Shown: positions 1-33,741, counted from the stretch's first letter. The stretch: DNA of 64,000 bases from Alphaproteobacteria bacterium (GCA_017501665.1 JAFVWM010000038.1:69252-133251), one strand, 5' to 3'. The notes: generated by a model from the sequence alone, not told the origin. Made by a program: numbers and translations.

Positions 1-509
1 GTGGTGTTATGACGGCTGCTTTGCGTACTGCATATTTTTATATCACAGGAAAAGAACTTGGTCAGCTTAATTTTGAGGTGATTGAAGGATTGGAAGCGGT
101 TAAAGTTGCCGAAGTAGATATCAATGGTGCCAAAGTAAGAATCGCTGTTGTAAACGGTGTGGGTAATGTTGAGGAAGTTATGGAAAACATTAAAACCGCT
201 CAAGAAGCCGGCGAGGAGCTTCCTTATCATTTTATCGAAGTTATGGCTTGCCCCGGTGGTTGTATCTCAGGTGGCGGTCAGCCAAAAGTGATGATGCAAT
301 GCATGGAAAAACCGTGGGGTATTACCGACGAAATAAGAAAACTTCGTTCAAAAGGTTTGAATGTAGAAGATGAGCAAGCAAAGAATCGCTTATCTCATCA
401 CAACGAATCAATTAAGAAGTTGTATGACGAATTTCTTGGTGAAGCAGGCGGTCACAAGTCGCACGAGTTGTTACATACTAAGTATCGTCAGCGTAACGTT
501 TACAAATAA
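1..509 (+). CDS. hydA: [FeFe]-hydrogenase catalytic subunit, C-terminal part (5' end lies outside the window): the end of the H-cluster domain followed by a C-terminal small-subunit-like domain.
   Basis: The translation contains 'HFIEVMACPGGCISGGGQP', the diagnostic L3/H-cluster cysteine motif of Fe-only hydrogenases. The preceding 'TAALRTAY...VDINGAKVRIAVVNGVGN' matches the CpI-type C-terminus. The tail 'SHHNESIKKLYDEFLGEAGGHKSHELLHTKY' resembles the Fe-hydrogenase small-subunit domain. The reading frame is open from base 3 with no start codon in the window. Confidence 0.85.
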   Translation, partial: GVMTAALRTAYFYITGKELGQLNFEVIEGLEAVKVAEVDINGAKVRIAVVNGVGNVEEVMENIKTAQEAGEELPYHFIEVMACPGGCISGGGQPKVMMQCMEKPWGITDEIRKLRSKGLNVEDEQAKNRLSHHNESIKKLYDEFLGEAGGHKSHELLHTKYRQRNVYK

Positions 510-546
510 AAAACTCGTATAATGGAATACTAATCGCAAAAAGGCG

Positions 547-607
547 AAAGGCTGAAAATTCACGTAGCTATTTGTACGGCTCAAAATTTTCAGCCTTCTT
601 TTTTTGC
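547..607 (+). terminator. Rho-independent terminator downstream of hydA.
   Basis: Inverted repeat 'aaaggctgaaaatt' ... 'aaaattttcagcctt' followed by the run 'cttttttttg'. Confidence 0.6.
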
Positions 608-760
608 TTCTATTATTCTCATTCTCCGAGTTTTTTGTATTGATTCTCGCCTTGAAAATAACTCTATAAATTCTTTTATTCGCCTTTTTTGTACGGCTCA
701 AAATTTTTGTCTCTCCTAGAAATCGCTCTATCTGTACTATTCTCCGAGTTTTTTTGTACA
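575..760. repeat. Direct repeats inside a ~700-bp non-coding region.
   Basis: 'ttgtacggctcaaaatttt' occurs at about 582 and 687, and 'ttctccgagtttttt(t)gta' at about 623 and 741. The small minus-strand ORF 471..791 is judged spurious. Confidence 0.5.
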
Positions 761-774
761 CTTTGCTTACGCTT

Positions 775-1086
775 CGTTTAGGGCATGACAATATTGATTA
801 AAACAAGGAAGATCCCTAGAATTTTTTGTTGCACAAAAAATAGGGATGACGTTTTAAATTTAAAATGTCATCGCCCAGCAAAGTCATTCCTCGCTCGGCG
901 CTTCAGCGTCCGTGCGTCTAGGAATCTCATCTTTGCGTCAGCGCTAATATAATAAAAACAAGGAAGATCCCTTGACCTCACTGCGTTCGGAGGGATGACA
1001 TTTCAGGTTAAAGAAGATCCCTTGACCTCACTGCGTTCGGAGGGATGACGTTATATATTCGTTTAGGGCATGATAATATTGATTTA
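775..1086. repeat. Cluster of GC-rich palindromic elements resembling Rickettsia palindromic elements (RPEs), with flanking direct repeats.
   Basis: Three hairpin units share the stem 'gatccct...agggatgac(g)': 810-850, then a ~51-bp tandem pair at 959-1000 and 1010-1051 ('aagatcccttgacctcactgcgttcggagggatgac'). The palindrome 'gatgacgttttaaatttaaaatgtcatc' lies at about 845-872. The flanking direct repeat 'cgtttagggcatga(c/t)aatattgatt' occurs at 775-800 and 1059-1086. These are GC-rich islands in AT-rich DNA. Confidence 0.6.
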
Positions 1087-1236
1087 TCTCGTTTGTCAGC
1101 TTGTTCAAGTGAAGACGCCAGAGATACAAAAACACCTATAAAATCTATTGCCAAATTTAAAAAAACATCATATAATAAAGTATAATTTGCAAATTTTTAC
1201 GATTTGCGAAACTTTTGTTATTGAGGAATGTGTCAG

Positions 1237-4200
1237 ATGAAGAGAATTATTGCTTTGATTGTACTTATCTGTTGCTGTTGTGTATATTCGGCATATTCTC
1301 TTGTGCAACCTCTTTCTTTGACACGAACCACCGGCTCGTCTTCGACAACTTCGTTGCCAATGTATGCTCCACCGCCTAGTGATACGGAGCAAACGTGTTA
1401 TTGTTCTTCGGATACAACTGATGGAACTAGTGATATTAACGGTGGCTGTTTTTTTTGTTTAAATTATGATGGTTATGAAGCCACTCTATTAACAGATTCG
1501 CATCCACCAGCTTTTACTAATGGTTATTATTGTTGGCAATCCGGAAAAATTAATTCGGAATGTGAAAATAATTATGTAGATGAACCACTTTGTGACCATG
1601 AACATAAGTTTTATGCTGAAATAGCTGGACATTACGGATATAAGACTCTTCAAGATGTAAAAGCAACAAACTTAAAGTGCTGTTATTATATGCATGAGGG
1701 AGATAATAGCTATGGAGATATAAATGCGATAAGCGTTGATGCTAATGGAATTACTATCAACGAAGGTTATTCTCCATGGCTTTATTTTTGTGAGGCTGAT
1801 CCGACACAATGTGAGTGGAAGATAAAGAATCCTAATAATCAATCGTTGCAGCTATATAATGATAACGCTATTAAAAGCTATTTGAATAAGATAAAAGATT
1901 TTGAAGGTGTTTTTCCAACGGAAGGTGAAGATATACTTTGTCGAATATCAGCACTTAATGGAGATGAAGAAACGATTATTGATGATGTTAGAATTTTTTA
2001 TGCTAATTCTAGTCTTCAGAGCTGTGATGATGATTATTCTCCATATGAAACAAGTGAATATAGTAGTCCTTGTAAAATAAGTATAGTTAGTTACAATAAT
2101 GATGAGGCGAGAGGTGAAATAGAGATTACCGAAGAGTATCTTTTAGGTTACCAAAAAGAACCTGAAGAGCCCGCTATTCCTGATTGTTCTGATATTTTTT
2201 CTGATGAGATTATAGATCTTTTGAGATCAGACGGAAAATGTAAACTAGATCATGAGACAAAGTCTTGTGTTCTTAACGGTGTAACCAAATACTACTGTAG
2301 TGCTATTGCAGCTGGAACTTTTTGTAAAGGTGATTTTAGCCTATATTACGACGATACTTACACAGAAACCTGTCCTATAAATAATTCACAAGTCGTAGGA
2401 TATAAAAAACCTGAGGAAGAAGCGGTTCCTTCTGAAGATTGTTCTGATATTTTTTCTGATGATATTATAGATCTTTTGAGATCAGACGGAAAATGTGCTC
2501 AAAATCATGAAACAAAGTCTTGTGTTTATAACAATGAAACCAAATACTACTGTAGTGCTTCTGTAGATGTAGCTAATTGTGCAGGTGATTTTAGCCTATA
2601 TTACTACGATACTTACACAGAAACCTGTTCTATAAATAATTCACAAGTCGTAGGATATAAAAAACCTGAGGTTACCTGTGATGAAGTTTTTGAAGACATA
2701 GATAGTATTATCGGCATATTACCTGAAAAATCAACCATAGAGTGTGGCTCTTACGTGTCAGGATCGTGTACATATGGTAGTAAGGCATACTCTTTCTGCT
2801 ATGGTGATGTCTTAAATGCCTGCCCTGATAACTCAGACGAATACAGTAGGGAATATACCTCATCATACACAGAACCATGTTCTTACACACTAGGCGAACC
2901 GGATGGTCATTATAACGGGATGGACATCAATATTTTAGGGTTTACTCAAAAAGATACAGATAGTTGTGAAAATAAAATACATGACTATTTTGAAAATGAT
3001 AATTGGTTATACGTAAGAGAATCAGATCTTAATGAAGAAGATCGTGAAATTAAAGATAATTTTATTACAGACACATGTATAGATAATGGCACAGAGACAT
3101 ATATATATCGTATATGTACTTTTGAAGAGGTCTGTAACAGGGAAGACGTTAACGGAAGCACCTCTTCCTGTAATTATTACGAAGGTTTACACACTTGCAA
3201 ATGTCCGAATGGTTGGATGACCATCGAAGAATATAGATCCCTTAATGGTTATACGGAGGATACAATAATCACGGGGATAGGTAATGCGTGCAAAGCTGAA
3301 AAAGTTGAAAAATTTAGCGAGTTTGAGGTGGTTTTAGGAACAGATGAGTATCCATCATGTCAAGACATCATAGAACATCAAAATGCCTCAGGTGATCCGA
3401 CTAAACCTAAAGACGGCTATTATGATTATTGCTCAGATGAAATTGATAGAATTGCTTGCCATAATAGTGATACAATGGCTGCTCTTTGCCGTTATTGCGG
3501 AGCAGAGAATAATGTTGAAAACGGATACAATTTTGAAAAATCCTTTAAAATAGACAGTGAAACAGTCCCTTGTCTACAAGGTTGTCATGAGGACTATGCT
3601 TGCAGTTATACGAAGACAGATGGCACCACAATAACCTATTGTTCACAATGTGATTGCAGCGGATATGCCTCCAAGTTGGAACTTTGTTCTGTCGGTTTTG
3701 AGGGAGAAGAAAACAATACCGAGATATTGGCTTCTCCATGTTATACGTCAGGAAAAGTAGATGAAAATGAAAGTTGTAAACTGAGCCCGATTGATAATAC
3801 TTTACCGACTACGTACAAAAAGATATTGTGTCCTGATGATTATGTGACACTGGAAGATTGGCTTGAAACATCTCAGACAATAATTGATGAAAACGAATTT
3901 TTAGGAAACAACTTGAATATTAGCAACGAAAATCAATGGATAAATTATTTTGTACCTCAGACTGATGAAGGATCAGTATGTGATTATGCTGTCGAAGTTG
4001 TTGAATCAGGTTCAAGCGGAACAGATGTAGATTCCGACATTGAAGAGACAAATGATCCCGAAAACCGTTTGTATGAAATAATATCACTTGAAACAAAATA
4101 TAAAGGATTTAACTTAAATTGCCAAGCCTTGGTTGAGACATTACCAAATCTTGAGTTTATCAATCAGGCCTATTTGCACAACTACAATGATTATACAACC

Positions 4201-5214
4201 TGTTGGGATATTGAAGGCAATCAGGAAAAATACCTTGCCACATGTGAGGAGGATTATCTTCTTCCCGAAGAAGGTTATGAAGTGATCGGCAACGAAGATG
4301 TTTGTAAATTTAACGGAAAAGATTATTATAAATATGGCGGATCTTGTCCGGTGATATTCAGCGGTAAAGAAGCTGTTGTTGCTGAGAGCATGAGTGATGA
4401 TGCTATAAGAAATTTGTATGGTAGCGTAAAAATAAGTTATTGCAATGATAAGGGTGTCAAAAAGAAAGTTACTTTATGTGACCCGAATATCTATAACCAA
4501 ATATGCGAATATCCATACACATATGCTGACGGTCTGCCACAAAAAGAATGGTGTTTTAGAAATATTCGAGGAAAAGCCGTTAATCCATACGATACAGCAA
4601 ATAATGTAAAATATTATACAAATACAGGATTGCCCATACAATGTGAGTATGTTCCAGAATCGTGTGATTCTATATTGCAACAAGATAGTAGCGCCAATAA
4701 TGTTTTCATAGAAGACAGCCCTAATGACTGTATAAAAAAATACGGAACGGCAGTCCAAACAAAATTGTGTAGCGGAGATAATAATATTCCGAAATACGCG
4801 TGCTATTATCCGAAAGATACCTATAAATATACTACCCAAAACTGTCCTATCGGAAGAGATTTGTCTCGCCCATACATCTTAATCAACGGTGTAAAACATT
4901 GGGACAGATGTGATTGTCCTCCGGCCTATAAATATCACGTAAATAACTGTCGTGTGTATGATCTTGGCGGTGATACTTGCGAACAACAAATCGACCCGCA
5001 GTTCATTGATGCGGCCAATGATCCGACATTGCCGACATCAGGAAGCATAAAGCTCTATACCAAGTGCAACGATCCTCAGATAAATCAACCGAACGGTTGT
5101 AAAACCCCTTTGGGTACTTGGGCAAAATGCTACTATTGTTGCCCCAAAGGTACCAGAGCTACCGGAAATCTGTCTATTGACAGTTGCGGAGCAAAAATTT
5201 ACGAGTGTAAATAA
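1237..5214 (+). CDS. Very large (~1320 aa) cysteine-rich, acidic, Tyr/Asn/Asp-rich secreted protein with an internal tandem ~82-aa repeat; function unknown.
   Basis: The ORF is long and uninterrupted. 'gagga' sits 8 nt upstream of the ATG at 1237 (an in-frame ATG also exists at 1228). The N-terminus 'MKRIIALIVLICCCCVYSAYS' looks like a signal peptide. Cysteines number in the dozens in patterns such as CxC and CxxC. No recognisable enzymatic motif was found. Confidence 0.7.
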   Translation: MKRIIALIVLICCCCVYSAYSLVQPLSLTRTTGSSSTTSLPMYAPPPSDTEQTCYCSSDTTDGTSDINGGCFFCLNYDGYEATLLTDSHPPAFTNGYYCWQSGKINSECENNYVDEPLCDHEHKFYAEIAGHYGYKTLQDVKATNLKCCYYMHEGDNSYGDINAISVDANGITINEGYSPWLYFCEADPTQCEWKIKNPNNQSLQLYNDNAIKSYLNKIKDFEGVFPTEGEDILCRISALNGDEETIIDDVRIFYANSSLQSCDDDYSPYETSEYSSPCKISIVSYNNDEARGEIEITEEYLLGYQKEPEEPAIPDCSDIFSDEIIDLLRSDGKCKLDHETKSCVLNGVTKYYCSAIAAGTFCKGDFSLYYDDTYTETCPINNSQVVGYKKPEEEAVPSEDCSDIFSDDIIDLLRSDGKCAQNHETKSCVYNNETKYYCSASVDVANCAGDFSLYYYDTYTETCSINNSQVVGYKKPEVTCDEVFEDIDSIIGILPEKSTIECGSYVSGSCTYGSKAYSFCYGDVLNACPDNSDEYSREYTSSYTEPCSYTLGEPDGHYNGMDINILGFTQKDTDSCENKIHDYFENDNWLYVRESDLNEEDREIKDNFITDTCIDNGTETYIYRICTFEEVCNREDVNGSTSSCNYYEGLHTCKCPNGWMTIEEYRSLNGYTEDTIITGIGNACKAEKVEKFSEFEVVLGTDEYPSCQDIIEHQNASGDPTKPKDGYYDYCSDEIDRIACHNSDTMAALCRYCGAENNVENGYNFEKSFKIDSETVPCLQGCHEDYACSYTKTDGTTITYCSQCDCSGYASKLELCSVGFEGEENNTEILASPCYTSGKVDENESCKLSPIDNTLPTTYKKILCPDDYVTLEDWLETSQTIIDENEFLGNNLNISNENQWINYFVPQTDEGSVCDYAVEVVESGSSGTDVDSDIEETNDPENRLYEIISLETKYKGFNLNCQALVETLPNLEFINQAYLHNYNDYTTCWDIEGNQEKYLATCEEDYLLPEEGYEVIGNEDVCKFNGKDYYKYGGSCPVIFSGKEAVVAESMSDDAIRNLYGSVKISYCNDKGVKKKVTLCDPNIYNQICEYPYTYADGLPQKEWCFRNIRGKAVNPYDTANNVKYYTNTGLPIQCEYVPESCDSILQQDSSANNVFIEDSPNDCIKKYGTAVQTKLCSGDNNIPKYACYYPKDTYKYTTQNCPIGRDLSRPYILINGVKHWDRCDCPPAYKYHVNNCRVYDLGGDTCEQQIDPQFIDAANDPTLPTSGSIKLYTKCNDPQINQPNGCKTPLGTWAKCYYCCPKGTRATGNLSIDSCGAKIYECK
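2175..2670 (+). repeat. Two tandem ~246-nt direct repeats inside the Cys-rich gene, encoding duplicated ~82-aa Cys-containing modules.
   Basis: 'tgattgttctgatattttttctgatga(g/t)attatagatcttttgagatcagacggaaaatgt...' recurs at about 2175 and 2424. The protein segments 'PDCSDIFSDEIIDLLRSDGKC...TETCPINNSQVVGYKKPE' and 'EDCSDIFSDDIIDLLRSDGKC...TETCSINNSQVVGYKKPE' are about 85% identical. Confidence 0.85.
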
Positions 5215-5295: not shown

Positions 5296-6564
5296 TTGAA
5301 GAACTTAAAAAAATGGCTAAAATCCATGAAAATTTATGCCGACAAACGTATGCTCGTTATGTTGTTGTTGGGGTTTGTGTCCGGATTGCCTTTTTTGCTT
5401 GTTTCATCAACATTGTCTCTTTGGCTTAAAGATGTCGGCGTTTCATTAACCGCAATCGGTTTGTTTTCACTTGTAAAAGCTCCTTACAGTTTTAAATGGC
5501 TGATTTCGCCGATTATTGACCAATATTCTTTGCCGTTTTTTTCAAAATTGGGACGTCGCAGAAGTTGGGCGGTTTTTTTACAGATATTGTTGATCATATC
5601 TCTGATATATACTGCCTTTACCAATCCGACTTTATCACCGGTGATGTTTGTTGTTTTTGTTTTTATGGTCGCGCTGTTTTCATCTGCCCAAGACATTGTT
5701 CTTGATGCTTATCGTATCGAAAACTTCAATTCTAAAGAACAAGGCGCCGGTGTTGCCGTATTTGTCTTGGGTTACCGCATAGGTCTGTTGTTTTCCGGAG
5801 CAGGAGCTTTGTTTTTGGCCTCGATAATGTCGTGGTCTTATGTATATTTGATTATGGCCGGCGGTGTTTTAATCGGTCTTGTTACTATATTGCTGTCCAA
5901 AGAGCCTAAAAACAACCGCGCTTCAAAACCATATACTCTTCGCGCTACTATTGTTAATGCCGTAATAAAGCCTTTTTCAAATTTTATGAAACGTGATAAA
6001 TGGCTTCTTATTTTGCTGTTTATATTTTTCTATCGCATGAGCGATGCTTATGTCGCGCCAATGGCTTATCCGTTTTTTGATGACATTGGTTTTACCAAAG
6101 TTCAAATTGCCTCAATTATTAAAATATATGGTGTAATTGCTACCATTTTTGGCACTCTTGTCGGCGGTGTCGTGGTTAATCGTATAGGATTGGCTAAAGC
6201 ATTGTTTGTTTGCGGAATATTGCAAGGACTATCCAACCTTGTTTATGTCGGACAAGTTTATGCCGGTAATAACGCTCAAATATTAATGATAAATATTTTT
6301 ATCGAAAATGTTTCGGGCGGAATGGGTACAGCTGCTTTTGTGGCATATTTATCTGCACTTTGTAACAAAAAATATACCGCAACCCAATATGCTTTGTTAT
6401 CTTCATTTATGGGGGCGGCTCGCGACTTGTTTTCTGCGTCGTCCGGTTTTGTGGCGCATATATTATCGTGGCAAAATTTCTTTATTGCCACAACTTTAAT
6501 GTCACTCCCCGGAATGATAATTTTATATTATTTGATAAAAGTAAAAGCTATTCGTAATCGCTAA
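5296..6564 (+). CDS. ampG: AmpG-family muropeptide / MFS permease.
   Basis: TTG start at 5296 lies 7 nt after 'aaggag'. The 422-aa protein is polytopic. The N-terminus 'MLVMLLLGFVSGLPFLLVSSTLSLWLKDVGVSLTAIG' is typical of AmpG. Confidence 0.75.
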   Translation: MKNLKKWLKSMKIYADKRMLVMLLLGFVSGLPFLLVSSTLSLWLKDVGVSLTAIGLFSLVKAPYSFKWLISPIIDQYSLPFFSKLGRRRSWAVFLQILLIISLIYTAFTNPTLSPVMFVVFVFMVALFSSAQDIVLDAYRIENFNSKEQGAGVAVFVLGYRIGLLFSGAGALFLASIMSWSYVYLIMAGGVLIGLVTILLSKEPKNNRASKPYTLRATIVNAVIKPFSNFMKRDKWLLILLFIFFYRMSDAYVAPMAYPFFDDIGFTKVQIASIIKIYGVIATIFGTLVGGVVVNRIGLAKALFVCGILQGLSNLVYVGQVYAGNNAQILMINIFIENVSGGMGTAAFVAYLSALCNKKYTATQYALLSSFMGAARDLFSASSGFVAHILSWQNFFIATTLMSLPGMIILYYLIKVKAIRNR

Positions 6565-7322
6565 ACCTTATATGGTAATTTTGAATAGATAAAATCACTT
6601 ACTTTGTTGGGCAAAATTGAACCTAACCACGTGGCTAACCTCATCTGCCAAGGAAAAGCTATCAATCCGACATTTTTTTCTATGCGCTTGGCAATAATTT
6701 CTGCCGCTTTGTCTGCTTCCATAAAATAGGGCATCGGACAGGTGTTCTTATCGGTAATGCGCGAACGAATAAACCCCGGACAAATTGTCGAAACTCTTAT
6801 ACCCAGAGGTGCTAAAGACAATCTTAATCCCTCTCCCCAAGCTTTAACACAAGCTTTTGTCGCCGAATATGACGGACAAGTCGGCATCCCATGATATCCG
6901 GCAATCGACGAAGTAATTGCAATATGTTTCATTTGCTCTGCCGGAGCTTTCTTAAACAAATCTATCACCGGTAAAACCGTATTTATAACTCCCAAAACAT
7001 TAACAAAAAACGTTCTTCGTACATTATCGGTTGTTTCCTCCAAAGTTGCCACGCCGGCATTGGCAAATACCAAATTAAGAGGCATTTTTTTATTGGCTTC
7101 GTTTATCCATGCTTCAACATCTTTCTTCATTCTTACATCAACGATTCTTGCATCAACCTCAACACCGAACTTACGGCATTCTTCAGCCGTTTTATCCAAT
7201 CTTTCCTTGTTTCTTCCGCACAATGATAACAATTTCACACCTGACTTGGCATAATGAATTGCTAAAGCCTCACCAATTCCCGATGAAGCTCCGGTAATTA
7301 AAACATGATTAAATTTATTCAT
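6561..7322 (-). CDS. Short-chain dehydrogenase/reductase (SDR) family oxidoreductase.
   Basis: 'VLITGASSGIGEALA' is the TGxxxGxG Rossmann motif. The catalytic 'YSATKACVKAW' matches YxxxK. Confidence 0.8.
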   Translation of the reverse strand: MNKFNHVLITGASSGIGEALAIHYAKSGVKLLSLCGRNKERLDKTAEECRKFGVEVDARIVDVRMKKDVEAWINEANKKMPLNLVFANAGVATLEETTDNVRRTFFVNVLGVINTVLPVIDLFKKAPAEQMKHIAITSSIAGYHGMPTCPSYSATKACVKAWGEGLRLSLAPLGIRVSTICPGFIRSRITDKNTCPMPYFMEADKAAEIIAKRIEKNVGLIAFPWQMRLATWLGSILPNKVSDFIYSKLPYKV

Positions 7323-11890: not shown

Positions 11891-12394
11891 ATGCAAGAAA
11901 AACATCCTTTATATGATATGGTTGCTCCGACTATAGAAAGCATGGGGTTTGAAGTTGTCAGAATACTTTTGACCGGTACACAAAAACCGACTTTGCAAAT
12001 TATGATAGAACGTCAAGACCGCAAAAATTTGGTTGTTGATGACTGCGTAGCCGTCAGTCGTGCAGTGTCAGCCATTTTGGATGAAAAAGATCCGATAGAA
12101 AGCGAATACTCTTTGGAGGTAAGTTCTCCGGGTATTGATCGTCCGCTTACAAAACCGGAACATTTTTCTCGCTTCAGCGGATATGAGGCAAAAATAGAAA
12201 CTTCTGATTCTATTGACGGACGTAAAAGATTTAAAGGTAAAATCATTACCCTTAAAGACGATGATACAATCGTATTTTTGATGGATGAAAAAGAATACTC
12301 AATTCCTTATCATTCTGTCAGTAAAGCTAAACTTGTTTTAACCGATGAGCTATGGGATGAATACGTTGCCAATGCTCAAGAAGACGAACAATAA
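11891..12394 (+). CDS. rimP: Ribosome maturation factor RimP.
   Basis: 167 aa immediately upstream of nusA in the conserved rimP-nusA-infB order; 'LEVSSPGIDRPL' motif. Confidence 0.85.
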   Translation: MQEKHPLYDMVAPTIESMGFEVVRILLTGTQKPTLQIMIERQDRKNLVVDDCVAVSRAVSAILDEKDPIESEYSLEVSSPGIDRPLTKPEHFSRFSGYEAKIETSDSIDGRKRFKGKIITLKDDDTIVFLMDEKEYSIPYHSVSKAKLVLTDELWDEYVANAQEDEQ

Positions 12395-12433
12395 ATTTTG
12401 TACTAACCTTAATTTGAATATTTAGAGGAAAAA

Positions 12434-13951
12434 ATGCAAACACAAGAAAATATGCCAAGACCTGAAATAATTTTGGTTGCAGACACCGTAGCCAGAGAAA
12501 AGAATATTGATAAAGAAGATGTTTTTGAAGCAATGGAAGTTGCCATTCAAAAATCAGCTCGTTCAAAATATGGTGCAGAACACGATATCAGAGCGCATAT
12601 TGACAGAAAGACAGGGGCAATTTCACTTGCACGTTATCGTGAAGTTATTGCAGATGATGCAACTAAAGAAAATGAAACAACTCAACTTTTCTTAGATGAA
12701 GCTCAAGCTTATGACGAAAATATAAAGGTAGGCGAATTTATTGTTGATGCTCTTCCGCCGATTGATTTCGGACGTATTGCCGCACAAACAGCAAAACAAG
12801 TTATTGTTCAAAAGGTTCGTGATGCCGAACGCAACAAACAATTTGAAGAATACAGAGAAAAAATAGGTACAATTATTAACGGAACAGTTAAACGTGTTGA
12901 ATTTAACAGTATTTCTGTTGATATCGGCAAAACGGAAGCAGTATTACGTCGTGAAGAAATAATACCTAAAGAAAAATTTAAGGTCGGTGACAGAATCAGA
13001 GCTTATGTTCTCGATGTAAGAAGAGAAAGCAAGGGGCCACAGATCTTCTTATCACGTACATGTCCCGAATTTTTAACTAAATTATTTACGTCAGAAGTTC
13101 CTGAAATTTATGACGGTATTATTCAAATTATGGGCGTTGCTCGTGATCCCGGTTCAAAAGCCAAGATATCTGTTAAAACAGACGATGTTACCGTAGATGC
13201 CGTAGGTTCTTGTGTGGGTTTAAGAGGAATTCGCGTTCAAGCAGTTACTAATGAATTGCAAGGTGAAAGAATTGACATTGTCCCTTATTCTGAAGACAAA
13301 GCTCAATACATGGTTTCAGCACTTTCTCCGGCCGAAGTTACTAAAGTTGTAATCGATGAAGAAAATAATCGTATTGAGGCAGTGGTTCCTCAAGAACAAT
13401 TCTCATTGGCTATCGGTCGTCGCGGTCAAAATGTCAGATTGGCTTCTTTATTGCTCGGTTGTGATATTGATGTTTTGACCGAAGAGCAAGAACAAGAGCG
13501 TCGTTCTAACGAAAATAAAGTTCGTTCACAGAGATTTATGGAAGCTTTGGACGTTGATGAAATGATTGCTCATTTGTTAATTGCCGAAGGCTTCTCCAAT
13601 GTTGATGAAGTGGCTATGGTTGATTTGAGCGAATTGGCCGAAATAGAAGGTTTTGATGATGATGTTGCTCAAGAGTTGCAAAAAAGAGCGAAAGAATATG
13701 TCGAAAACCGTAACAAAGAATTTGAAAAGAAGAGCAAATCGTTGGGCATTGATGAAAAGCTTCAGGCTATTGAAGGCTTAGACAAAGATATGCTTTTGGC
13801 TCTTGCCAATGCAAATATCCGCAATGTTGACGATTTAGGTGACTTGGCAACCGATGAGCTTATAGAAATATTAGGTGAAAACACTTTGTCTGTTAAAGAA
13901 GCAGAAAAAGTTATCATGGCTGCTCGTGCTCACTGGTTTGAAGAAGAGTAA
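12434..13951 (+). CDS. nusA: Transcription termination/antitermination factor NusA.
   Basis: S1 and KH domains ('IDIGKTEAVL', 'GSCVGLRGIRVQAVTNEL') and a C-terminal acidic repeat region. Confidence 0.95.
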   Translation: MQTQENMPRPEIILVADTVAREKNIDKEDVFEAMEVAIQKSARSKYGAEHDIRAHIDRKTGAISLARYREVIADDATKENETTQLFLDEAQAYDENIKVGEFIVDALPPIDFGRIAAQTAKQVIVQKVRDAERNKQFEEYREKIGTIINGTVKRVEFNSISVDIGKTEAVLRREEIIPKEKFKVGDRIRAYVLDVRRESKGPQIFLSRTCPEFLTKLFTSEVPEIYDGIIQIMGVARDPGSKAKISVKTDDVTVDAVGSCVGLRGIRVQAVTNELQGERIDIVPYSEDKAQYMVSALSPAEVTKVVIDEENNRIEAVVPQEQFSLAIGRRGQNVRLASLLLGCDIDVLTEEQEQERRSNENKVRSQRFMEALDVDEMIAHLLIAEGFSNVDEVAMVDLSELAEIEGFDDDVAQELQKRAKEYVENRNKEFEKKSKSLGIDEKLQAIEGLDKDMLLALANANIRNVDDLGDLATDELIEILGENTLSVKEAEKVIMAARAHWFEEE

Positions 13952-13960
13952 CAATCCTTT

Positions 13961-13997
13961 GATTAACCGGAAAGTATTGTTGCTTTCCGGTTAATCA
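13961..13997 (+). promoter_or_regulatory. Perfect 14-bp stem-loop between nusA and ylxR, followed by A8 rather than a T-tract; attenuator/processing-type hairpin.
   Basis: 'gattaaccggaaag' ... 'ctttccggttaatc'. Confidence 0.4.
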
Positions 13998-14016
13998 AAA
14001 AAAACGGAATAAACAA

Positions 14017-14586
14017 ATGAAAAGAGAAACGACCAGAAAATGTATTGTAACCGGAGAAATTCTCGAAAAAGAGAGTTTGTTGCGTTTTGTTGTGCTTCCT
14101 GACAATACAATCGTTCCCGATTTCAAAAAAAAGCTTAACGGTAAGGGTATTTATGTAAAAAACTCCAAAAGTTCTTTGGAAAAAGCCATAAAATCCAATC
14201 TGTTCGGCAAGGCTGTTAAAAAAAATGTAAAAGCAAACTTTGAGCTTATTGAACAAGTAGAGATCTTGCTTTTCAAACAAGCTCTAAGCTCCATTTCTCT
14301 GGCTCGTAAAGCCGGTGCAATGGTTTCCGGCATGGATAAAGTGAAAGAAGCTTTGAAAAAAAACAATGTTGCTTTTTTGCTCGAGGCTCAAGATGCCGGA
14401 GCTGACGGCCACAATAAAATTGTATCATTGGCCAAAAATATTGAAGTTTTTAATTTGTTTAAGATTGAGGAGTTAGACAAAGAATTAGCAAAAGAAAATA
14501 CTGTTCATTTAGCCTTTATCAAAGGCACCATGGCAAATTCGGTTAGAGAAACGTTCGTTCGACTAACCTCATACTTAAACAACTAA
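14017..14586 (+). CDS. ylxR: YlxR (DUF448) RNA-binding protein fused to an L7Ae-like domain.
   Basis: N-terminal 'RKCIVTGEILEKESLLRFVV...GKGIYV' is YlxR-like; C-terminal 'ISLARKAGAMVSG...VAFLLEAQDAG' is L7Ae-like. It sits between nusA and infB. Confidence 0.8.
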   Translation: MKRETTRKCIVTGEILEKESLLRFVVLPDNTIVPDFKKKLNGKGIYVKNSKSSLEKAIKSNLFGKAVKKNVKANFELIEQVEILLFKQALSSISLARKAGAMVSGMDKVKEALKKNNVAFLLEAQDAGADGHNKIVSLAKNIEVFNLFKIEELDKELAKENTVHLAFIKGTMANSVRETFVRLTSYLNN

Positions 14587-14610
14587 ATATAAAAAACGGA
14601 GTAATAATAT

Positions 14611-17103
14611 ATGACAGAAGATAATGCAAAAAAGAAATTAACATTATCAGGAAAATCTACCCTAACACTAAAATTAGGCAGTACACCTAAATCATCAAAT
14701 GACGGCAAAAAAATGATTCAGGTTGAAGTGAGAAAAAAGAGAATTATCGGCCAAAATGTTGAACAAAAGGTTCAAAAACCTCAAATCGACGAAGAAACGG
14801 CTGCAAAATTAAAACTTATTGCCGAAGCCAAAGAGTTTGACAACAAGCGTCGTCAAGAGGAAGAAGAACGTAATGTACAAAGACAAAAAATTAAAGAAGA
14901 AGAGCTAAAAAAACTTAGAGAAAAAGAAGAAGAGAAAAGAATTGCCGAAGAAAAAGCTCAAGAGGAAGCTTTGAAAGTTCAAGAAGAAGCAGAAAAAGCT
15001 CAACAAGAAGCTTTGATTGCTTCTCAAAACGAAGTTGAAAATAAAGCTCTAAATAAATTCAAAGAACGTCAAAAACGCTCTTTCGACGATGATGACGACG
15101 ATGATGATGTAATATCTCGTCACTCTAGTAACAAAAAGCCTGTTTCAAAAGAAGATGTGTTTGAACAGGAACGCAAAAAGCAAATAACCAAACGTTCTTT
15201 TGAACCGCAACGTCGCTCAGGAAAAGTCAGTATTCATAATATCGGAACCGATGATGACGACGATGATTACGGGTTTGGAGCTCCGAGGCGCAGGTTCAAG
15301 AAAAAGCAACCCAAACCTGTTGTTCAAGTTGCGCCGACCGAAAAAGTTATTAAAGAAGTTATTATCCCCGAGATTATAACTGTTCAAGAGCTGGCAAACC
15401 GTATGGCTGAAAAATCTGCCGAAGTTATTAAAAAACTGATGTCTTTAGGCGTTATGGCTACTATCAACCAACCGATTGACGCTGATACCGCTCAAATTAT
15501 TGTTGAAGAATTCGGTCACAAATTTAAACGTGTTGCCGACAGTGATGTTGAAGAAGGTTTGTATAAAGAAGACGACACGCCGGAGCAACTATTACCTCGC
15601 GCGCCGGTTGTTACCGTTATGGGACACGTTGATCATGGTAAAACATCATTACTTGATGCTCTTCGTGAAACCAATGTAGTAGCTCGTGAAGCCGGCGGTA
15701 TTACTCAGCATATAGGAGCTTATCAGATTACCGTTCCTTCCGGCGATAAAATTACCTTTATTGATACCCCAGGTCACGAAGCTTTTTCTGAAATGCGTGC
15801 TCGAGGTGCAAAAGTTACCGATATTGTGGTGTTGGTTGTTGCTGCCAATGATGGTATTATGCCTCAGACCATTGAAGCCATTCGTCATGCCCAAGCGGCT
15901 GAAGTGCCAATTGTTGTAGCAATTAACAAAATCGACTTACCGGCAGCTGATCCGATGAAAGTTAAAACATCGTTATTGCAACACGGTATCGGTGTCGAAG
16001 AAATGGGGGGCGAATGCTTATGTGCCGAAGTTTCTGCAAAAAAACGCATAAACATCGATAAATTGGTTGATGCTATTTTACTTCAAGCTGAAGTGCTTGA
16101 CCTAAAAGCTAATCCCGATCGCAAGGGCGAAGGAGTGGTTGTCGAAGCTAAAATGGAAAAAGGTCGCGGTACTGTCGTTACAGCCTTGGTTCAAAAAGGT
16201 ACATTAAAAGTCGGTGATGTTGTTATTGCCGGCAAAGAATGGGGACACGTTCGCGCTATGTTTAATGAACATGGTCAAAAAATGCCAGAAGCAGGACCTG
16301 CAACTCCTGTTGAGATTTTAGGTTTGCAAGGAACTCCGTCTGCCGGAGATGATATCATCGCTGTTGCGGATGAAAGCAAAGCTAAAGAAATCACAGGATA
16401 CCGTATCCGTAAAGAACGTGAAGCAAAATTGGTTAAATCAGCTAAATCAGCTATGGAACAAATGCTTGATAAAATTAAATCAGGCGAAGTTAAAAACCTG
16501 CCGATTATTATCAAAGCTGACGTTCAGGGTTCTATTGAGGCTATTGAAGGTACTGTTTCAAAACTTTCCAACGATGAAGTTAAGGTTCAAATATTACACT
16601 CTGCCGTTGGCGGTATATCGGAATCAGATGTTACCTTGGCTAAGGCATCAAATGCTTTGATTATAGGTTTTAACGTTCGTGCTAATGCCCAAGCCAGAGA
16701 TATGGCTCGCCGTGACGGTGTCGAAATTAAATATTACTCGATTATCTACGATGTATTAGACGACATTAAAAAAGGTTTGGAAGGTATGTTATCACCGGAA
16801 CTTCGTGAAAAATTACTCGGTTATGCCGAAATTCGTGAAGTTTATAACATTACAGGTGTCGGTAAAGTCGGCGGTTGTATGATTACCGAGGGCTTGGTAA
16901 AACGTGGTGCTAAAATCCGTTTGTTGCGTGATAACGTGGTTATTCATGACGGTGCTATCGGACAACTTAAGCGCTTCAAAGAAGATGTTAAAGAAGTAAA
17001 AGAAGGCTTTGAATGCGGTATTTCGTTTGAAAATTATAATGATATTCAAAAAGGCGACTTTATTGAATGTTATGAGATTGAAGAAATCGCCGCCAAATTG
17101 TAA
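14611..17103 (+). CDS. infB: Translation initiation factor IF-2.
   Basis: G-domain motifs 'GHVDHGKTSLLD', 'DTPGH' and 'NKID'. The N-terminal region is long and charged with poly-Asp tracts. Confidence 0.95.
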   Translation: MTEDNAKKKLTLSGKSTLTLKLGSTPKSSNDGKKMIQVEVRKKRIIGQNVEQKVQKPQIDEETAAKLKLIAEAKEFDNKRRQEEEERNVQRQKIKEEELKKLREKEEEKRIAEEKAQEEALKVQEEAEKAQQEALIASQNEVENKALNKFKERQKRSFDDDDDDDDVISRHSSNKKPVSKEDVFEQERKKQITKRSFEPQRRSGKVSIHNIGTDDDDDDYGFGAPRRRFKKKQPKPVVQVAPTEKVIKEVIIPEIITVQELANRMAEKSAEVIKKLMSLGVMATINQPIDADTAQIIVEEFGHKFKRVADSDVEEGLYKEDDTPEQLLPRAPVVTVMGHVDHGKTSLLDALRETNVVAREAGGITQHIGAYQITVPSGDKITFIDTPGHEAFSEMRARGAKVTDIVVLVVAANDGIMPQTIEAIRHAQAAEVPIVVAINKIDLPAADPMKVKTSLLQHGIGVEEMGGECLCAEVSAKKRINIDKLVDAILLQAEVLDLKANPDRKGEGVVVEAKMEKGRGTVVTALVQKGTLKVGDVVIAGKEWGHVRAMFNEHGQKMPEAGPATPVEILGLQGTPSAGDDIIAVADESKAKEITGYRIRKEREAKLVKSAKSAMEQMLDKIKSGEVKNLPIIIKADVQGSIEAIEGTVSKLSNDEVKVQILHSAVGGISESDVTLAKASNALIIGFNVRANAQARDMARRDGVEIKYYSIIYDVLDDIKKGLEGMLSPELREKLLGYAEIREVYNITGVGKVGGCMITEGLVKRGAKIRLLRDNVVIHDGAIGQLKRFKEDVKEVKEGFECGISFENYNDIQKGDFIECYEIEEIAAKL

Positions 17104-17147
17104 TAATAGCAAGCAAAATAATAAAATACTTTGCTATGAATGATAAA

Positions 17148-17182
17148 ATAAAAACACCTCTTTTTTTAAGAGGTGTTTTTAA
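17148..17182. terminator. Bidirectional intrinsic terminator between convergent infB and pnp.
   Basis: 'aaaaacacctct-tttttta-agaggtgttttt'. Confidence 0.6.
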
Positions 17183-17199
17183 TTGCAATATAGAAGATA

Positions 17200-19320
17200 T
17201 TATTGTTCTAAATCTTCGCCTGTTTCTTGGTTTACTCTTTTGGCAGAAAGTTTAATCTTGCCACGATTATCGGCGCCAAGACATTTAACCCAAATTTGAT
17301 CACCTTCTTTATAGAAATCAGAAACAGAGGCAATACGCTCATTTTTGACTTCGGAAATGTGAACCAAACCTTCGGTTGTGCCGAGGAAGCGTACAAATGC
17401 ACCAAAGTCCATAATTTTGGTAATGGTACCATGATAAATTTTGCCCATTTCCGGTTCGGCAACAATACCCATAATCCACTCTAATGCGGCATCGCCGTCT
17501 TCTTTTTTCATCGAAGCGATTTTTACAACGCCGTCATCGGTAATATCAATCTTGGTGTGAGTGGTTTCGACAATCTCACGAATTACCTTACCACCTGTTC
17601 CGATAACTTCACGAATTTTGTCAGTCGGAATTTTAATAGCAACAATGCGAGGAGCTTTGTCTGAAACAGTTGGTCTGGGTTCGGCAATAGCTTTAGCCAT
17701 TTCGCCAAGAATATGGATACGACCTTCGTGTGCTTGATGAAGAGCTTTTTCCATAATCTCCTTAGTAATAGATGTAATTTTGATATCCATTTGAAGTGCG
17801 GTTACACCGTCTTTTGTTCCGGCTACTTTGAAGTCCATGTCGCCGAGGTGGTCTTCGTCACCTAAGATATCGGTCAAAACAGCTACTCGGCCATCATCTT
17901 CTTTGATCAAGCCCATGGCAATACCGGCAACGGGTTTTATCATCGGAACACCGGCCGACATTAAGGACATGGTGGTACCGCAAACAGTGGCCATAGAAGA
18001 AGAACCGTTTGATTCCATAATTTCGGATACGACACGAATGGTGTATGGAAAGGCGTCTTTGTCCTTTGGCATCATAGGGTGAATAGCTCGCCAAGCTAAT
18101 TTTCCGTGACCGATTTCACGACGTCCGGGCGAACCTAAACGACCGCATTCGCCAACCGAAAACGGTGGAAAGTTATAGTTTAGCATAAAGTCTTGTTTTG
18201 CTTCATCAAATAAGCCGTCGATAATTTGTGCGTCTTCGCCGGTACCTAAAGTCGTAACCACCAGAGCTTGTGTTTCGCCACGGGTAAATAAGGCAGAGCC
18301 ATGAGCAGTGGGCAGAATATCTACTTGGCAAGAAATGGGACGAACGGTTTTAGTGTCACGTCCGTCGATGCGACGGCCGGTGGTCAAAACTTTTTCACGA
18401 ACTACCTTGTGCATCAATTTTTCAATAACATCAAGGATGTAGCGGTTTTCAAATTCGTTTTCGGGGTCAATAGTTGCTTTTACTTCTTCGGAAACTTGAC
18501 CAACCAAAGTGCCACGAGCAAGTTTGTTAGTTTCTTCAAAAGCTTTGGCATATTTTGCTTCAAACTCTTTTTCAACGCGGGCGTATAATTCGTCAAATTC
18601 GGCCGGAAATACAGGAGCTTCCCATTGTTCTTTGCCTGCTTCTTTTTTCAGCTCGTTAATCATATCAATAACCGGTTGGAAGCTTTCAAAACCGAACATT
18701 ACAGCACCGAGCATGGTTTCTTCAGATAATTCATTGGCCTCTGATTCCACCATTAAAACACCTTCTTTAGTGCCGGCAACAGCCAATTCCAATTCAGAAG
18801 AGGGTTGTTGATCCATAGTCGGATTTAAGATGTATTGACCGTCTTTGTAACCTACTTTAGCGGCACCGATAGGTCCTAAGAACGGAATGCCCGAAACAGC
18901 CAATGCGGCAGAAGCGGCAATCATTGATACAACATCAGAATCGGTTTGTTTGTCGTGAGCCAAAACGGTACATACAACTTGAACTTCGTTTTTGAAGGCA
19001 TCGGGGAAAAGAGGGCGAATTGGTCTGTCAATAAGACGAGAAATGAGAACTTCACGTTCGGAAGGCTTGCCTTCTCTTTTCATAAAACCACCGGGGATTT
19101 TTCCGGAAGCATAGTATTTTTCTTGATAGTTAACTGTCAAAGGAAAGAAATCTTGATCCGCCTTTACCTCTTTTGCGGCACAAACCGTACCATGAACTAT
19201 TGTTTCACCATATGTGACAATAACCGAACCGGCGGCTTGTCTTGAAATTTTACCTGTTTCGAGAATGAGTTTTCTTCCGCCCCATTCCATTTCTTTGCGG
19301 ATTTCATTAAATTCGATCAT
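17200..19320 (-). CDS. pnp: Polynucleotide phosphorylase.
   Basis: 706 aa with two RNase PH domains plus KH and S1 domains ('GKVIREI', '[35 protein letters not shown]'). Confidence 0.95.
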
Positions 19321-19388
19321 ATTTCTTTACCTTTCATTTTCCATATAACCTCTACCTGCCCATGCAGGATTTTGTTCTTTCTTTAACA

Positions 19389-19421
19389 GCTTGCGGAGCT
19401 TTTTATATAAGCTCCGCAAGC
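19389..19421 (-). promoter_or_regulatory. 11-bp perfect stem-loop in the rpsO-pnp intergenic region, a candidate pnp-leader processing hairpin or rpsO terminator.
   Basis: 'gcttgcggagc-tttttatataa-gctccgcaagc'. An RNase III site in the pnp leader is established for E. coli; here it is inference only. Confidence 0.4.
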
Positions 19422-19438
19422 TGAGGAATGTTCAAAAA

Positions 19439-19708: not shown

Positions 19709-19729
19709 CTGTTTTTCCTTATACAAAAT

Positions 19730-33675: not shown

Positions 33676-33741
33676 TGTTTATTAACCAACCGACCGCTTG
33701 CAAATTTGTTTTGTGAGCAGGTCGGTATAAAACTAAAAAAA

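What the first reader, a model, noticed from the sequence alone, without database searches (positions are those of the whole stretch)
1..509. [FeFe]-hydrogenase in a genome that otherwise looks like an AT-rich intracellular alphaproteobacterium
The H-cluster motif 'MACPGGCISGGGQP' and a C-terminal small-subunit-like domain identify a monomeric HydA with a fused SSU domain. Fe-only hydrogenases mark anaerobic fermentative metabolism. They are rare in Rickettsiales-like bacteria, yet the rest of the window carries Rickettsiales-like features: RPE-type repeats, Sel1 and ankyrin genes, the YlxR-L7Ae fusion and the rearranged infB cluster. Together these point to a symbiont of an anaerobic host, or to a laterally acquired hydrogenase.
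Basis: partly seen in the sequence, partly recalled or inferred. Interest (0 to 1): 0.55.

Follow-up and report, generated by a model that had tools for sequence, protein, structure and literature searches.

The report
Hydrogenase operon end, rumen alphaproteobacterium
The window starts inside the last gene of a three-gene NADH-linked [FeFe]-hydrogenase operon of an uncultured rumen alphaproteobacterium, and this hydrogenase is normal for that gut lineage and was reported there in 2016, so the finding is largely ordinary.

Summary
Window 1-509 encodes the C-terminal 168 residues of a group A [FeFe]-hydrogenase catalytic subunit, with the H-cluster motif at 243-284 and the small-subunit-like domain at 327-494.

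The interpretation needs correcting in three ways.
- The enzyme is not monomeric. Contigs identical to the window show a hydC-hydB-hydA operon (NuoE-like, NuoF-like, 587-aa M3-type HydA).
- The organism is a rumen and gut alphaproteobacterium close to family CAG-239, order RF32. It has flagellar, LPS-export and cell-wall genes, so nothing marks it as an intracellular Rickettsiales.
- The hydrogenase is routine in this lineage. About 45 species-level genomes carry HydA at 74-94% identity, relatives carry HydG on the same contig, and Degli Esposti et al. 2016 already described this cluster with HydEFG and PFO in Azospirillum sp. CAG:239.

One extra point emerged. HydB in all these alphaproteobacteria lacks the C-terminal 2x[4Fe-4S] ferredoxin-docking domain, yet keeps the residue signatures of bifurcating enzymes. 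I infer, without a test, NADH-driven H2 production that does not use ferredoxin and depends on H2 scavengers.

Verdict: a new member of a known kind, of low to moderate interest.

The parts
1..509 (+). 3' end of hydA: the last 168 codons plus the stop at 507-509. HydA is the catalytic subunit of a group A, M3-type [FeFe]-hydrogenase, 587 aa in full. The rest of the gene, and hydB and hydC, lie upstream of the window start.
   Evidence: The full-length gene was recovered on L001 16832-18595(-) and on L002 and L004, which are 100% identical to the window. Full-length HydA scores 797.9 bits on NF040763 against a cut-off of 765.
243..284 (+). H-cluster signature L3: (E)VMACPGGCISGGGQP. It supplies one of the Cys ligands of the H-cluster.
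   Evidence: Read directly from the translation. It aligns to the same motif in T. kivui HydA1 and in HDCR HydA2.
327..494 (+). Fused small-subunit-like domain (Fe_hyd_SSU), the normal C-terminal wrap of single-chain group A HydA proteins.
   Evidence: Pfam PF02256, E 4.8e-21, aa 109-164, model positions 1-56 of 56. It also aligns to the separate small subunit of the Desulfovibrio enzyme (1hfe_S, 1e08_D).
536..607 (+). Long hairpin followed by a run of T, 27 nt after the hydA stop codon. Probably the intrinsic terminator that ends the hydCBA operon.
   Evidence: RNA fold -27 kcal/mol, z = -4.97 against 200 shuffles, none folding as well. Function is inferred.
509..1227 (.). Repeat-rich intergenic region between hydA and the next gene. 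It holds 43-nt, 27-nt and 20-nt direct repeats and short palindromes of the form GATCCCT...AGGGATGAC.
   Evidence: Searches show the copies occur only here within the window. Parts are 89-98% identical to several copies at the equivalent place in L008, whereas the flanking genes are about 82% identical. Not part of the hydrogenase. Function unknown.

Best explanation
Window 1-509 is the 3' end of hydA. hydA is the last gene of a hydC-hydB-hydA operon encoding a cytoplasmic, trimeric, NAD(H)-linked group A3-type [FeFe]-hydrogenase.
- HydC is NuoE-like and carries a [2Fe-2S] cluster.
- HydB is NuoF-like and carries FMN, the N3-type [4Fe-4S] cluster and an N-terminal [2Fe-2S] cluster.
- HydA is the M3-type catalytic subunit with the H-cluster.

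The host is an uncultured, flagellated rumen and gut alphaproteobacterium with a reduced genome, in or near family CAG-239 (order RF32). The operon sits among core genes and has the host's base composition. It is conserved across dozens of species of the lineage, so it was acquired long ago and then inherited vertically.

Mechanism, inferred. NADH from fermentation reduces the FMN in HydB, and electrons pass through the HydB and HydA iron-sulfur chain to the H-cluster, which releases H2. In this whole alphaproteobacterial clade HydB ends just after the NuoF fold and lacks the C-terminal 2x[4Fe-4S] domain (clusters B3 and B4) where ferredoxin docks in bifurcating HydABC. The enzyme therefore most likely works without ferredoxin coupling. 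NADH-driven H2 formation would then be feasible only at low H2 pressure, that is, when methanogens or other H2 consumers are present.

Shown: gene identity, operon structure, cofactor motifs, the truncation, the taxonomic distribution. Inferred: direction of catalysis, independence from ferredoxin, dependence on H2 scavengers.
For: **Identity of the fragment.**

**Operon.** The hydC (157 aa), hydB (557 aa) and hydA (587 aa) genes lie 2-3 nt apart on L001, L002, L004 and L005. L002, L004 and L006 are 100% identical to the window where they overlap it. NCBIfam gives HydA 797.9 bits on NF040763 'NADH-dependent [FeFe] hydrogenase' (cut-off 765), HydB on nuoF_fam (E 4e-142) and HydC on the NuoE/HoxE families.

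**Lineage-wide conservation.** 65 genome loci were found. About 45 are 'Alphaproteobacteria bacterium' MAGs from rumen and human gut with HydA at 74-94% identity, and a second alphaproteobacterial group sits at about 60%. The top 120 database clusters are all 587-593 aa and 77-95% identical.

**Core-genome setting.** lptF, lptD, surA and ksgA lie upstream in L008. lptG, rimP, nusA and infB lie downstream in the window. GC and GC3 of hydCBA (0.41 / 0.34-0.35) fall within the range of the neighbouring genes.

**Maturation.** HydG (TIGR03955, 898 bits) lies 4.3 kb upstream of hydC in L018. In UBA1254 it lies about 9.5 kb upstream of hydC on contig DBVW01000018.1.

**Taxonomy.** UBA1254 is a genus of family CAG-239, order RF32 (PMC13508870, PMC12509527). 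Ruminant RF32 genomes average 1.59 Mb (PMC8199421).

**Prior report.** M3 hydrogenase with NuoE/NuoF neighbours, HydEFG and PFO in Azospirillum sp. CAG:239 and CAG:260 and Acetobacter sp. CAG:977 (PMC4967309).

**HydB truncation.**
- PDB HydB chains extend about 70 residues beyond the end of this HydB.
- All alphaproteobacterial loci have no CxxCxxCxxxC motif in HydB, whereas the Fibrobacter, Omnitrophota, Spirochaetes and Clostridia relatives have two.
- No split ferredoxin-like gene is conserved next to the operon.
- Deleting the same domain in T. kivui HydB (P565-G630) gave low bifurcation activity, and ferredoxin is modelled to dock there (PMC10021017).
- HydB homologues without B3/B4 are treated as non-bifurcating in PMC9304861 and PMC11406978. 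S. wolfei Hyd1ABC is the tested example (PMC5626996, PMC7311640).
Against: - HydB carries all three residue-level signatures that Losey et al. 2020 use to recognise bifurcating beta subunits: GDPG-A-Y-M-D, Phe in GTKVFALTG, and GGPSG (criteria from PMC7311640). It also retains the N-terminal [2Fe-2S] cluster. In my NJ tree it sits inside the clade of full-length, presumably bifurcating enzymes. Ferredoxin coupling by another route is therefore not excluded.
- No biochemical data exist for any member of this alphaproteobacterial clade.
- HydE and HydF, PFOR and ferredoxin were not seen for the window's own genome. Only 64 kb plus flanks were available.
- The order-level placement rests on one classified relative and on MAG labels. 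The window's PNPase is at most 57% identical to any 50%-cluster representative, and its best named hit is Ehrlichia.
- The NJ tree has no support values, and its sampling was shaped by the search patterns.
Confidence: 0.75

Rival explanations
1. It is a canonical electron-bifurcating (confurcating) HydABC. It oxidises NADH and reduced ferredoxin together to make H2, as in Thermotoga, Acetobacterium and Thermoanaerobacter. Ferredoxin would dock somewhere other than the missing HydB C-terminal domain, for example near the HydC [2Fe-2S] cluster or the HydB N-terminal cluster.
For: - HydB has the bifurcating-type signatures A/M, F and GGPSG (criteria in PMC7311640).
- The best PDB matches of HydB are bifurcating enzymes: 7t2r_B at E 3e-201 and 7q4v_B at E 3e-192.
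- The gut relatives described in PMC4967309 also carry PFO and small ferredoxins, which would supply reduced ferredoxin.
- The T. kivui C-terminal deletion variant kept low, not zero, bifurcating activity (PMC10021017).
Against: - The B3/B4 domain and the preceding DKKCxxGKC motif are absent in every alphaproteobacterial HydB examined, and no split domain is encoded nearby.
- Schut et al. 2022 state that all true Bfu enzymes keep the full set of BfuB clusters (PMC9304861).
- HydA passes NCBI's cut-off for the 'NADH-dependent' model NF040763.
Confidence: 0.3
2. One reading: a monomeric HydA in an obligately intracellular, Rickettsiales-like symbiont of an anaerobic eukaryote such as a rumen ciliate, or a recent lateral acquisition by such a symbiont.
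For: - The lineage has small genomes with lost amino-acid biosynthesis (1.59 Mb, PMC8199421) and this window's GC is low.
- The window encodes a secreted Sel1-like protein and a very large Cys-rich secreted protein.
- The best named PNPase hits are Ehrlichia at 53% and 'Rickettsiaceae bacterium H1' at 49%.
- The rumen is rich in anaerobic protists.
Against: - The enzyme is not monomeric: hydC and hydB lie immediately upstream.
- The acquisition is not recent. GC and GC3 equal those of the neighbours, and the operon is conserved in about 45 species plus a second alphaproteobacterial group.
- The window has flagellar genes, LptG, MurJ and an AmpG-like transporter.
- Relatives are also found in human stool, where Azospirillum sp. 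CAG:239 reached 11.6% of reads in one sample (PMC4967309).
- No ankyrin genes were detected, and the repeats are not dispersed.
- None of this strictly excludes an epibiotic or facultative association with protists.
Confidence: 0.07
3. Assembly or binning artefact: a hydrogenase gene from a Firmicute or Spirochaete joined to an alphaproteobacterial contig.
For: MAG collections do contain chimeric contigs. One close homologue locus is labelled 'Lactobacillales' (L036), and one HydG hit is labelled 'Roseburia hominis'.
Against: - The same hydA-to-neighbour junction is present in at least six independent assemblies from different samples and assemblers, three of them at 100% identity.
- The operon is flanked on both sides by proteobacterial core genes: lptF, lptD and surA upstream, and lptG, rimP, nusA and infB downstream.
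- Composition matches the neighbours.
Confidence: 0.01

Closest known systems
M3 [FeFe]-hydrogenase with NuoE/NuoF neighbours in the gut metagenomic species Azospirillum sp. CAG:239 and CAG:260 and Acetobacter sp. CAG:977 (Degli Esposti et al. 2016, Biol Direct, PMC4967309)
   Same: - The same kind of organism: uncultured gut alphaproteobacteria. I infer from the matching name that GTDB family CAG-239 is named after one of them.
- The same hymABC-like gene cluster with a long M3-type HydA.
- Maturases are present in those genomes, and HydG is confirmed here in relatives.
   Different: - The window comes from a different, ruminant-associated species. I did not compare its sequences directly with the CAG:239 accessions because they could not be fetched.
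- That paper does not discuss the missing HydB C-terminal Fe-S domain. It frames the genes in terms of eukaryote origins, not enzyme mechanism.
Electron-bifurcating HydABC of Thermoanaerobacter kivui, Acetobacterium woodii and Thermotoga maritima (PDB 8a6t, 7q4v/8a5e, 7p5h; PMC10021017, PMC9499530)
   Same: - Subunit composition and gene content.
- HydA architecture. The window fragment aligns to T. kivui HydA1 residues 417-567 at E 2e-38.
- HydB core with FMN, the B1 cluster and the N-terminal [2Fe-2S] cluster, plus the bifurcating-type residue signatures.
   Different: - HydB stops about 70 residues early. There are no B3/B4 [4Fe-4S] clusters, no DKKCxxGKC motif and no Lys-rich ferredoxin-docking loop.
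- It lacks the extra C-terminal [2Fe-2S] domain of T. maritima HydA.
- HydA has a 9-residue insertion after the L3 motif relative to T. kivui.
[quoted passage not shown]
   Same: - A trimeric or fused NuoE/NuoF/HydA design.
- The beta subunit lacks the B3/B4 clusters (as summarised in PMC11406978).
- The predicted consequence: H2 from NADH without ferredoxin, feasible only at low H2 pressure, which fits a methanogen-rich habitat.
   Different: The residue signatures are the opposite of those reported for this group: A/M instead of T,S / K,S,A, Phe instead of Tyr, and GGPSG present. The window enzyme groups with full-length enzymes of Planctomycetota, Omnitrophota and Fibrobacterota. The truncation therefore looks like a separate, secondary loss.
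Monomeric ferredoxin-dependent CpI-type hydrogenase of Clostridium pasteurianum (PDB 1feh, 4xdc; NCBIfam NF040762)
   Different: Full-length HydA scores 612.9 bits on NF040762, below its cut-off of 900, while passing NF040763. It is also encoded directly after NuoE- and NuoF-like genes.

Membership tests
[FeFe]-hydrogenase, group A (catalytic subunit HydA) | The three H-cluster signatures: L1 TSCCPxW, L2 MPCxxKxxE and L3 ExMACxxGCxxGGGQP | tested here: met
   L3 is in the window at nt 243-284. L1 (FTSCCPAWV) and L2 (IMPCTAKKWE) are in the full-length protein from L001. TIGR02512 scores 519 bits against a cut-off of 406.
[FeFe]-hydrogenase, group A (catalytic subunit HydA) | M3 architecture: N-terminal [2Fe-2S], His-ligated [4Fe-4S] and 2x[4Fe-4S] F-domain, then the H-domain and a small-subunit-like C-terminus | tested here: met
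   Precomputed Pfam domains Fer2/Fer2_4, NADH-G_4Fe-4S_3, Fer4, Fe_hyd_lg_C and Fe_hyd_SSU on the 587-aa product. The small-subunit domain is in the window.
Multimeric NAD(H)-linked HydABC (HydDB group A3 / NCBIfam NF040763) | hydA adjacent to genes for NuoE-like (HydC) and NuoF-like (HydB) subunits | tested here: met
   The hydC, hydB and hydA genes are contiguous on L001, L002, L004 and L005 and in all alphaproteobacterial genome loci. HydA scores 797.9 bits on NF040763 against a cut-off of 765.
Bfu family of electron-bifurcating enzymes (Schut et al. 2022) | Invariant BfuBC core with the full set of BfuB iron-sulfur clusters, including the C-terminal B3 and B4 [4Fe-4S] clusters | tested here: not met
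   HydB ends ...KLVDAEEK about 10 residues after the NuoF fold. It has no CxxCxxCxxxC motif, whereas non-alphaproteobacterial relatives have two. No split domain is encoded nearby. The criterion is taken from PMC9304861.
Bfu family of electron-bifurcating enzymes (Losey et al. 2020 residue criteria) | Beta subunit with Ala/Glu and Met at T. maritima HydB positions 232 and 234, Phe at 367, and GGPSG at 427-431 | tested here: met
   GDPGAYMD, GTKVFALTG and GGPSG are present in the window-species HydB and in all relatives checked. I assigned the positions by motif homology, not by a numbered alignment to T. maritima.
[quoted passage not shown] | Beta subunit lacking the extra Fe-S domains and carrying Thr/Ser, Lys/Ser/Ala, Tyr and no GGPSG. 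Activity with NADH alone. | tested here: inconclusive
   Cluster content fits, because B3 and B4 are absent. The residue signatures do not fit. Activity cannot be tested here.
Functional [FeFe]-hydrogenase system | HydE, HydF and HydG maturases in the same genome | not testable with these tools
   Only the window and about 10 kb of flanks of its species were reachable, and they hold none. In relatives, HydG is on the hydCBA contig (L018; UBA1254) or among core genes. HydE, HydF and HydG are reported for CAG:239, CAG:260 and CAG:977 in PMC4967309. I did not search for HydE or HydF.
Rickettsiales / obligate intracellular alphaproteobacteria | Phylogenetic placement in Rickettsiales, loss of motility and envelope functions, dispersed RPE-type repeats, ankyrin-type effector genes | tested here: inconclusive
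   - Against: flagellar genes, lptG, murJ and an AmpG-like transporter are present. The repeats are local only. No ankyrin was found. The relative UBA1254 is classified in CAG-239/RF32 (PMC13508870, PMC12509527).
- For: the best named PNPase hit is Ehrlichia at 53%.
- No marker-gene tree could be built.

The most novel reading that the evidence does not exclude
The gut alphaproteobacterial orders (RF32/CAG-239 and a second group that may be Rs-D84), together with some Planctomycetota, carry a HydABC that descends from bifurcating enzymes. It still has their FMN-site signatures but has naturally lost the whole ferredoxin branch (B3, B4 and the preceding Cys motif). If so, it is a natural counterpart of the engineered T. 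kivui HydB C-terminal deletion. It would show that NADH-only hydrogenases arose more than once, and that the residue signatures now used to call 'bifurcating' hydrogenases in metagenomes are not sufficient. Ecologically, these abundant reduced-genome rumen bacteria would be obligate partners of H2 consumers.
Probability: 0.4. Interest if true: 0.45.

Novelty: new member of a known kind. Interest (0 to 1): 0.3.

Why it matters
For the question as posed, it matters little. An [FeFe]-hydrogenase is expected in this gut alphaproteobacterial lineage, and it has been in the literature since 2016 in the debate on the origin of hydrogenosomal enzymes.

Two modest points remain.
- Rumen H2 budgets and hydrogenase surveys usually class every HydABC as 'bifurcating A3'. 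The consistent loss of the ferredoxin-docking domain in a whole, fairly abundant rumen clade suggests these bacteria release H2 from NADH alone. That would tie their fermentation to methanogen activity and is relevant to models of methane mitigation.
- The conflict between cluster content and residue signatures makes this enzyme a cheap test case for the criteria used to predict bifurcation from sequence.

Tried and rejected
- **Looking up HydC of L001 to walk further upstream.** The 7.7 kb (L001) to 66 kb (L004) further upstream on the window species' contigs stayed unread.
- **GTDB taxonomy of the RGIG MAGs.** I searched the supplements of Xie et al. 2021 and found nothing in the held files.
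- **Placing the organism by PNPase.** I searched the 50%-identity representatives and read the cluster names. Few representatives carry names and the best identity is only 57%, so the result is weak: Ehrlichia 53%, Rickettsiaceae H1 49%, a 'Chlorobi' MAG 48%.
- **HydG acquired from Clostridia.** I kept this only as a lead.
- **Split ferredoxin-like gene replacing the missing HydB domain.** Absent next to the operon, except for an unrelated small 2x[4Fe-4S] ORF in L010 and L011 and one in L028.
- **Literature link between RF32 and rumen protozoa.** No informative statement found.
- **Rfam at gathering threshold.** It found only one tRNA in the window, so the intergenic repeats match no described RNA family.
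- **Rejected readings.** Monomeric HydA, recent lateral transfer, and assembly chimera. Reasons are given under the rival explanations.

Full report
**1. The observation**

Window 3-509 on the plus strand translates without a stop into 168 residues that end ...HTKYRQRNVYK*. The sequence MACPGGCISGGGQP occupies residues 81-94, nt 243-284.
- Pfam finds the end of the large-subunit H-domain (PF02906, E 7e-16) followed by a complete small-subunit domain (PF02256, E 5e-21).
- NCBIfam aligns the fragment to the last ~150 positions of two full-length HydA models.
- The best solved relative is HydA1 of the Thermoanaerobacter kivui HydABC complex, residues 417-567 of 571, E 2e-38.

The ORF is cut by the window edge.

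**2. What lies upstream**

A look-up of the neighbouring short-chain dehydrogenase (6561-7322, minus strand) returned metagenome contigs that cover the window start. Three of them (L002, L004, L006) are 100% identical to the window over 8-13 kb, and L001 is 98.8% identical.

On these contigs hydA is 587 aa. Directly before it come a 557-aa NuoF-like gene and a 157-aa NuoE-like gene, 2-3 nt apart.
- Full-length HydA passes NCBI's cut-off for NF040763, 'NADH-dependent [FeFe] hydrogenase' (797.9 against 765). It fails the cut-off of the monomeric clostridial model NF040762 (612.9 against 900).
- It has all three H-cluster signatures and the M3 set of N-terminal Fe-S domains.

The enzyme is thus a trimeric HydABC, not a monomer.

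A strong hairpin with a T-run 27 nt after the stop codon (-27 kcal/mol, z about -5) probably terminates the operon.

**3. Whose genome this is**

The identical contigs come from ruminant gastrointestinal metagenomes. I infer this from the XIEF21 sample labels; several related MAGs are named Roe_deer_Rumen, Sheep_Rumen and Yak_Rumen.

A scan of one genome per species found 65 loci.
- About 45 'Alphaproteobacteria bacterium', 'uncultured Azospirillum sp.' or 'Rhodospirillaceae' MAGs from rumen and human gut have HydA at 74-94% identity.
- A second alphaproteobacterial group sits at about 60%.
- Only then come Fibrobacter, Omnitrophota, Planctomycetota, Treponema and Sphaerochaeta at 52-57%.

One of the first group, UBA1254 (78% identity), is a GTDB genus in family CAG-239 (PMC13508870), which belongs to order RF32 (PMC12509527). 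Xie et al. 2021 describe ruminant RF32 genomes as reduced, 1.59 Mb, with lost amino-acid biosynthesis (PMC8199421).

The window itself encodes FliL, FliM, DUF6468 and a MotE-like protein, DUF2336, LptG, MurJ, an AmpG-like transporter, FtsK and UvrB. In the nearest species genome, hydCBA is preceded by lptF, lptD, surA and ksgA. That is the gene content of a motile Gram-negative cell, and nothing in it marks an obligate intracellular bacterium.

I could not build a marker tree. A PNPase search gave at most 57% identity to any cluster representative, and the best named hit was Ehrlichia at 53%. A deep relationship to Rickettsiales, or attraction caused by AT bias, remains open.

**4. Is the hydrogenase unusual here?**

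No.
- It is conserved across the lineage.
- Its GC and GC3 match the neighbouring genes.
- It lies among core genes in several independent assemblies.
- HydG (TIGR03955, 898 bits) lies 4.3 kb upstream of hydC in L018. In UBA1254 it lies about 9.5 kb upstream of hydC on the same contig, behind a small TM1266-like gene. In other relatives it sits among ribosomal-protein genes or beside thyA, folA and dnaN.

Degli Esposti et al. 2016 already reported a long M3 hydrogenase next to NuoE and NuoF homologues, all three maturases and PFO. They found these in the gut metagenomic species Azospirillum sp. CAG:239 and CAG:260 and Acetobacter sp. CAG:977 (PMC4967309).

An old lateral origin is still plausible, because the nearest outgroups belong to other phyla.

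**5. How it probably works**

Solved bifurcating HydB chains (7t2r_B, 7q4v_B, 8a6t_B, 7p5h_B) align to this HydB up to its last residues and then continue for about 70 more.
- Every alphaproteobacterial HydB stops shortly after the NuoF-type [4Fe-4S] motif. Group 1 ends ...KLVDAEEK, and group 2 has short Cys-poor tails.
- The two Planctomycetota HydB stop at the same place.
- Fibrobacter, Omnitrophota, Spirochaetes and Clostridia relatives keep DKKCxxGKC plus two CxxCxxCxxxC motifs.
- No conserved split ferredoxin-like gene sits beside the operon.

That missing domain carries clusters B3 and B4. It is the modelled ferredoxin-docking site, and deleting it in T. kivui (P565-G630) gave low bifurcation activity (PMC10021017). 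Schut et al. 2022 and Zheng and Huang 2024 treat HydB homologues without B3/B4 as non-bifurcating, with S. wolfei Hyd1ABC as the tested case (PMC9304861, PMC11406978, PMC5626996).

Against this, the HydB here has all three residue signatures that Losey et al. 2020 assign to bifurcating beta subunits, and it keeps the N-terminal [2Fe-2S] cluster (PMC7311640). In an NJ tree it nests among full-length enzymes, with the truncated forms grouped together (no support values).

My reading is that a formerly bifurcating enzyme secondarily lost its ferredoxin branch. It would now pass electrons from NADH to protons, which works only at low H2 pressure. That condition fits a methanogen-rich rumen. This step is inference. 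I give it about even odds, and about 0.3 to canonical bifurcation by another docking route.

**6. Verdict**

The finding is a correct gene identification attached to a partly wrong story. The enzyme is a new member of a known kind, in a lineage where it was already described. The lineage-wide HydB truncation is a small, testable addition.

Noticed in passing
window 509-1227; L008 11827-12464: The intergenic repeats after hydA (43-, 27- and 20-nt direct repeats, and GATCCCT...AGGGATGAC palindromes) occur only here in the 64 kb. Segments are 89-98% identical to several copies at the same position in a different species (L008), whose genes are only about 82% identical to the window's. They are better conserved than coding sequence, which would fit a young mobile element or a functional RNA/DNA site. 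They have no Rfam match.
   Followed up: partly
window 1228-5214 (+): A 1328-aa protein with a signal-peptide-like N-terminus, very rich in Cys, with no Pfam match. It has an internal ~235-nt repeat (2182-2416 and 2437-2671). Its length differs between otherwise near-identical strains: 1325 aa, 1331 aa, or split into 997 + 418 aa. It looks like a variable surface or secreted protein.
   Followed up: partly
window 48050-64000: tRNA-Leu(TAA) lies at 48050-48136. After it GC falls from about 0.36 to 0.27-0.33. This stretch carries a Dcm-type methylase with an HNH endonuclease (49858-52174), a GIY-YIG protein, HipA (58867-60039), GNAT acetyltransferases and an HTH protein. It is probably an integrated island with restriction-modification and toxin genes.
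   Followed up: partly
window 31837-38896 and 41729-44308: Five ORFs (230-1080 aa) have no Pfam match at E <= 0.001: 612, 385, 1080 and 231 aa in 31837-38896, and 859 aa at 41729-44308. The 34-38 kb part of the first stretch has slightly raised GC (0.41-0.42). The 859-aa ORF directly follows the flagellar genes fliL, fliM, DUF6468 and the MotE-like gene.
   Followed up: no
window 11891-21144: rimP, nusA, ylxR and infB are on the plus strand, but pnp, rpsO and truB follow on the minus strand and rbfA is again on the plus strand. The usual single-strand cluster has therefore suffered an inversion. In L008 infB lies inverted directly downstream of hydA.
   Followed up: partly
P0197 and P0127; L018 2130-3545: HydG of these alphaproteobacteria is 79% identical to a protein named Clostridium sp. 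CAG:1013. One near-identical hit (bit score in the range of the 92-96%-identity hits) is labelled Roseburia hominis MAG. This points either to lateral exchange of the maturase with gut Clostridia or to mis-binned contigs.
   Followed up: partly
L074 9698-9943 (UBA1254): A small TM1266-like gene (PF21699, 81 aa) sits immediately upstream of hydG. It may be a maturation accessory gene.
   Followed up: no
window 17200-19320 (-): The PNPase is at most 57% identical to any 50%-identity cluster representative in a 1.8-billion-protein library. This shows how divergent the lineage is. The best named hits are Ehrlichia and a Rickettsiaceae MAG.
   Followed up: partly
L041-L043, L048, L051, L054-L060: The non-alphaproteobacterial relatives have an extra 115-134-aa gene between hydC and hydB, possibly a HydD/BfuD-like subunit. 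All alphaproteobacterial operons lack it.
   Followed up: no
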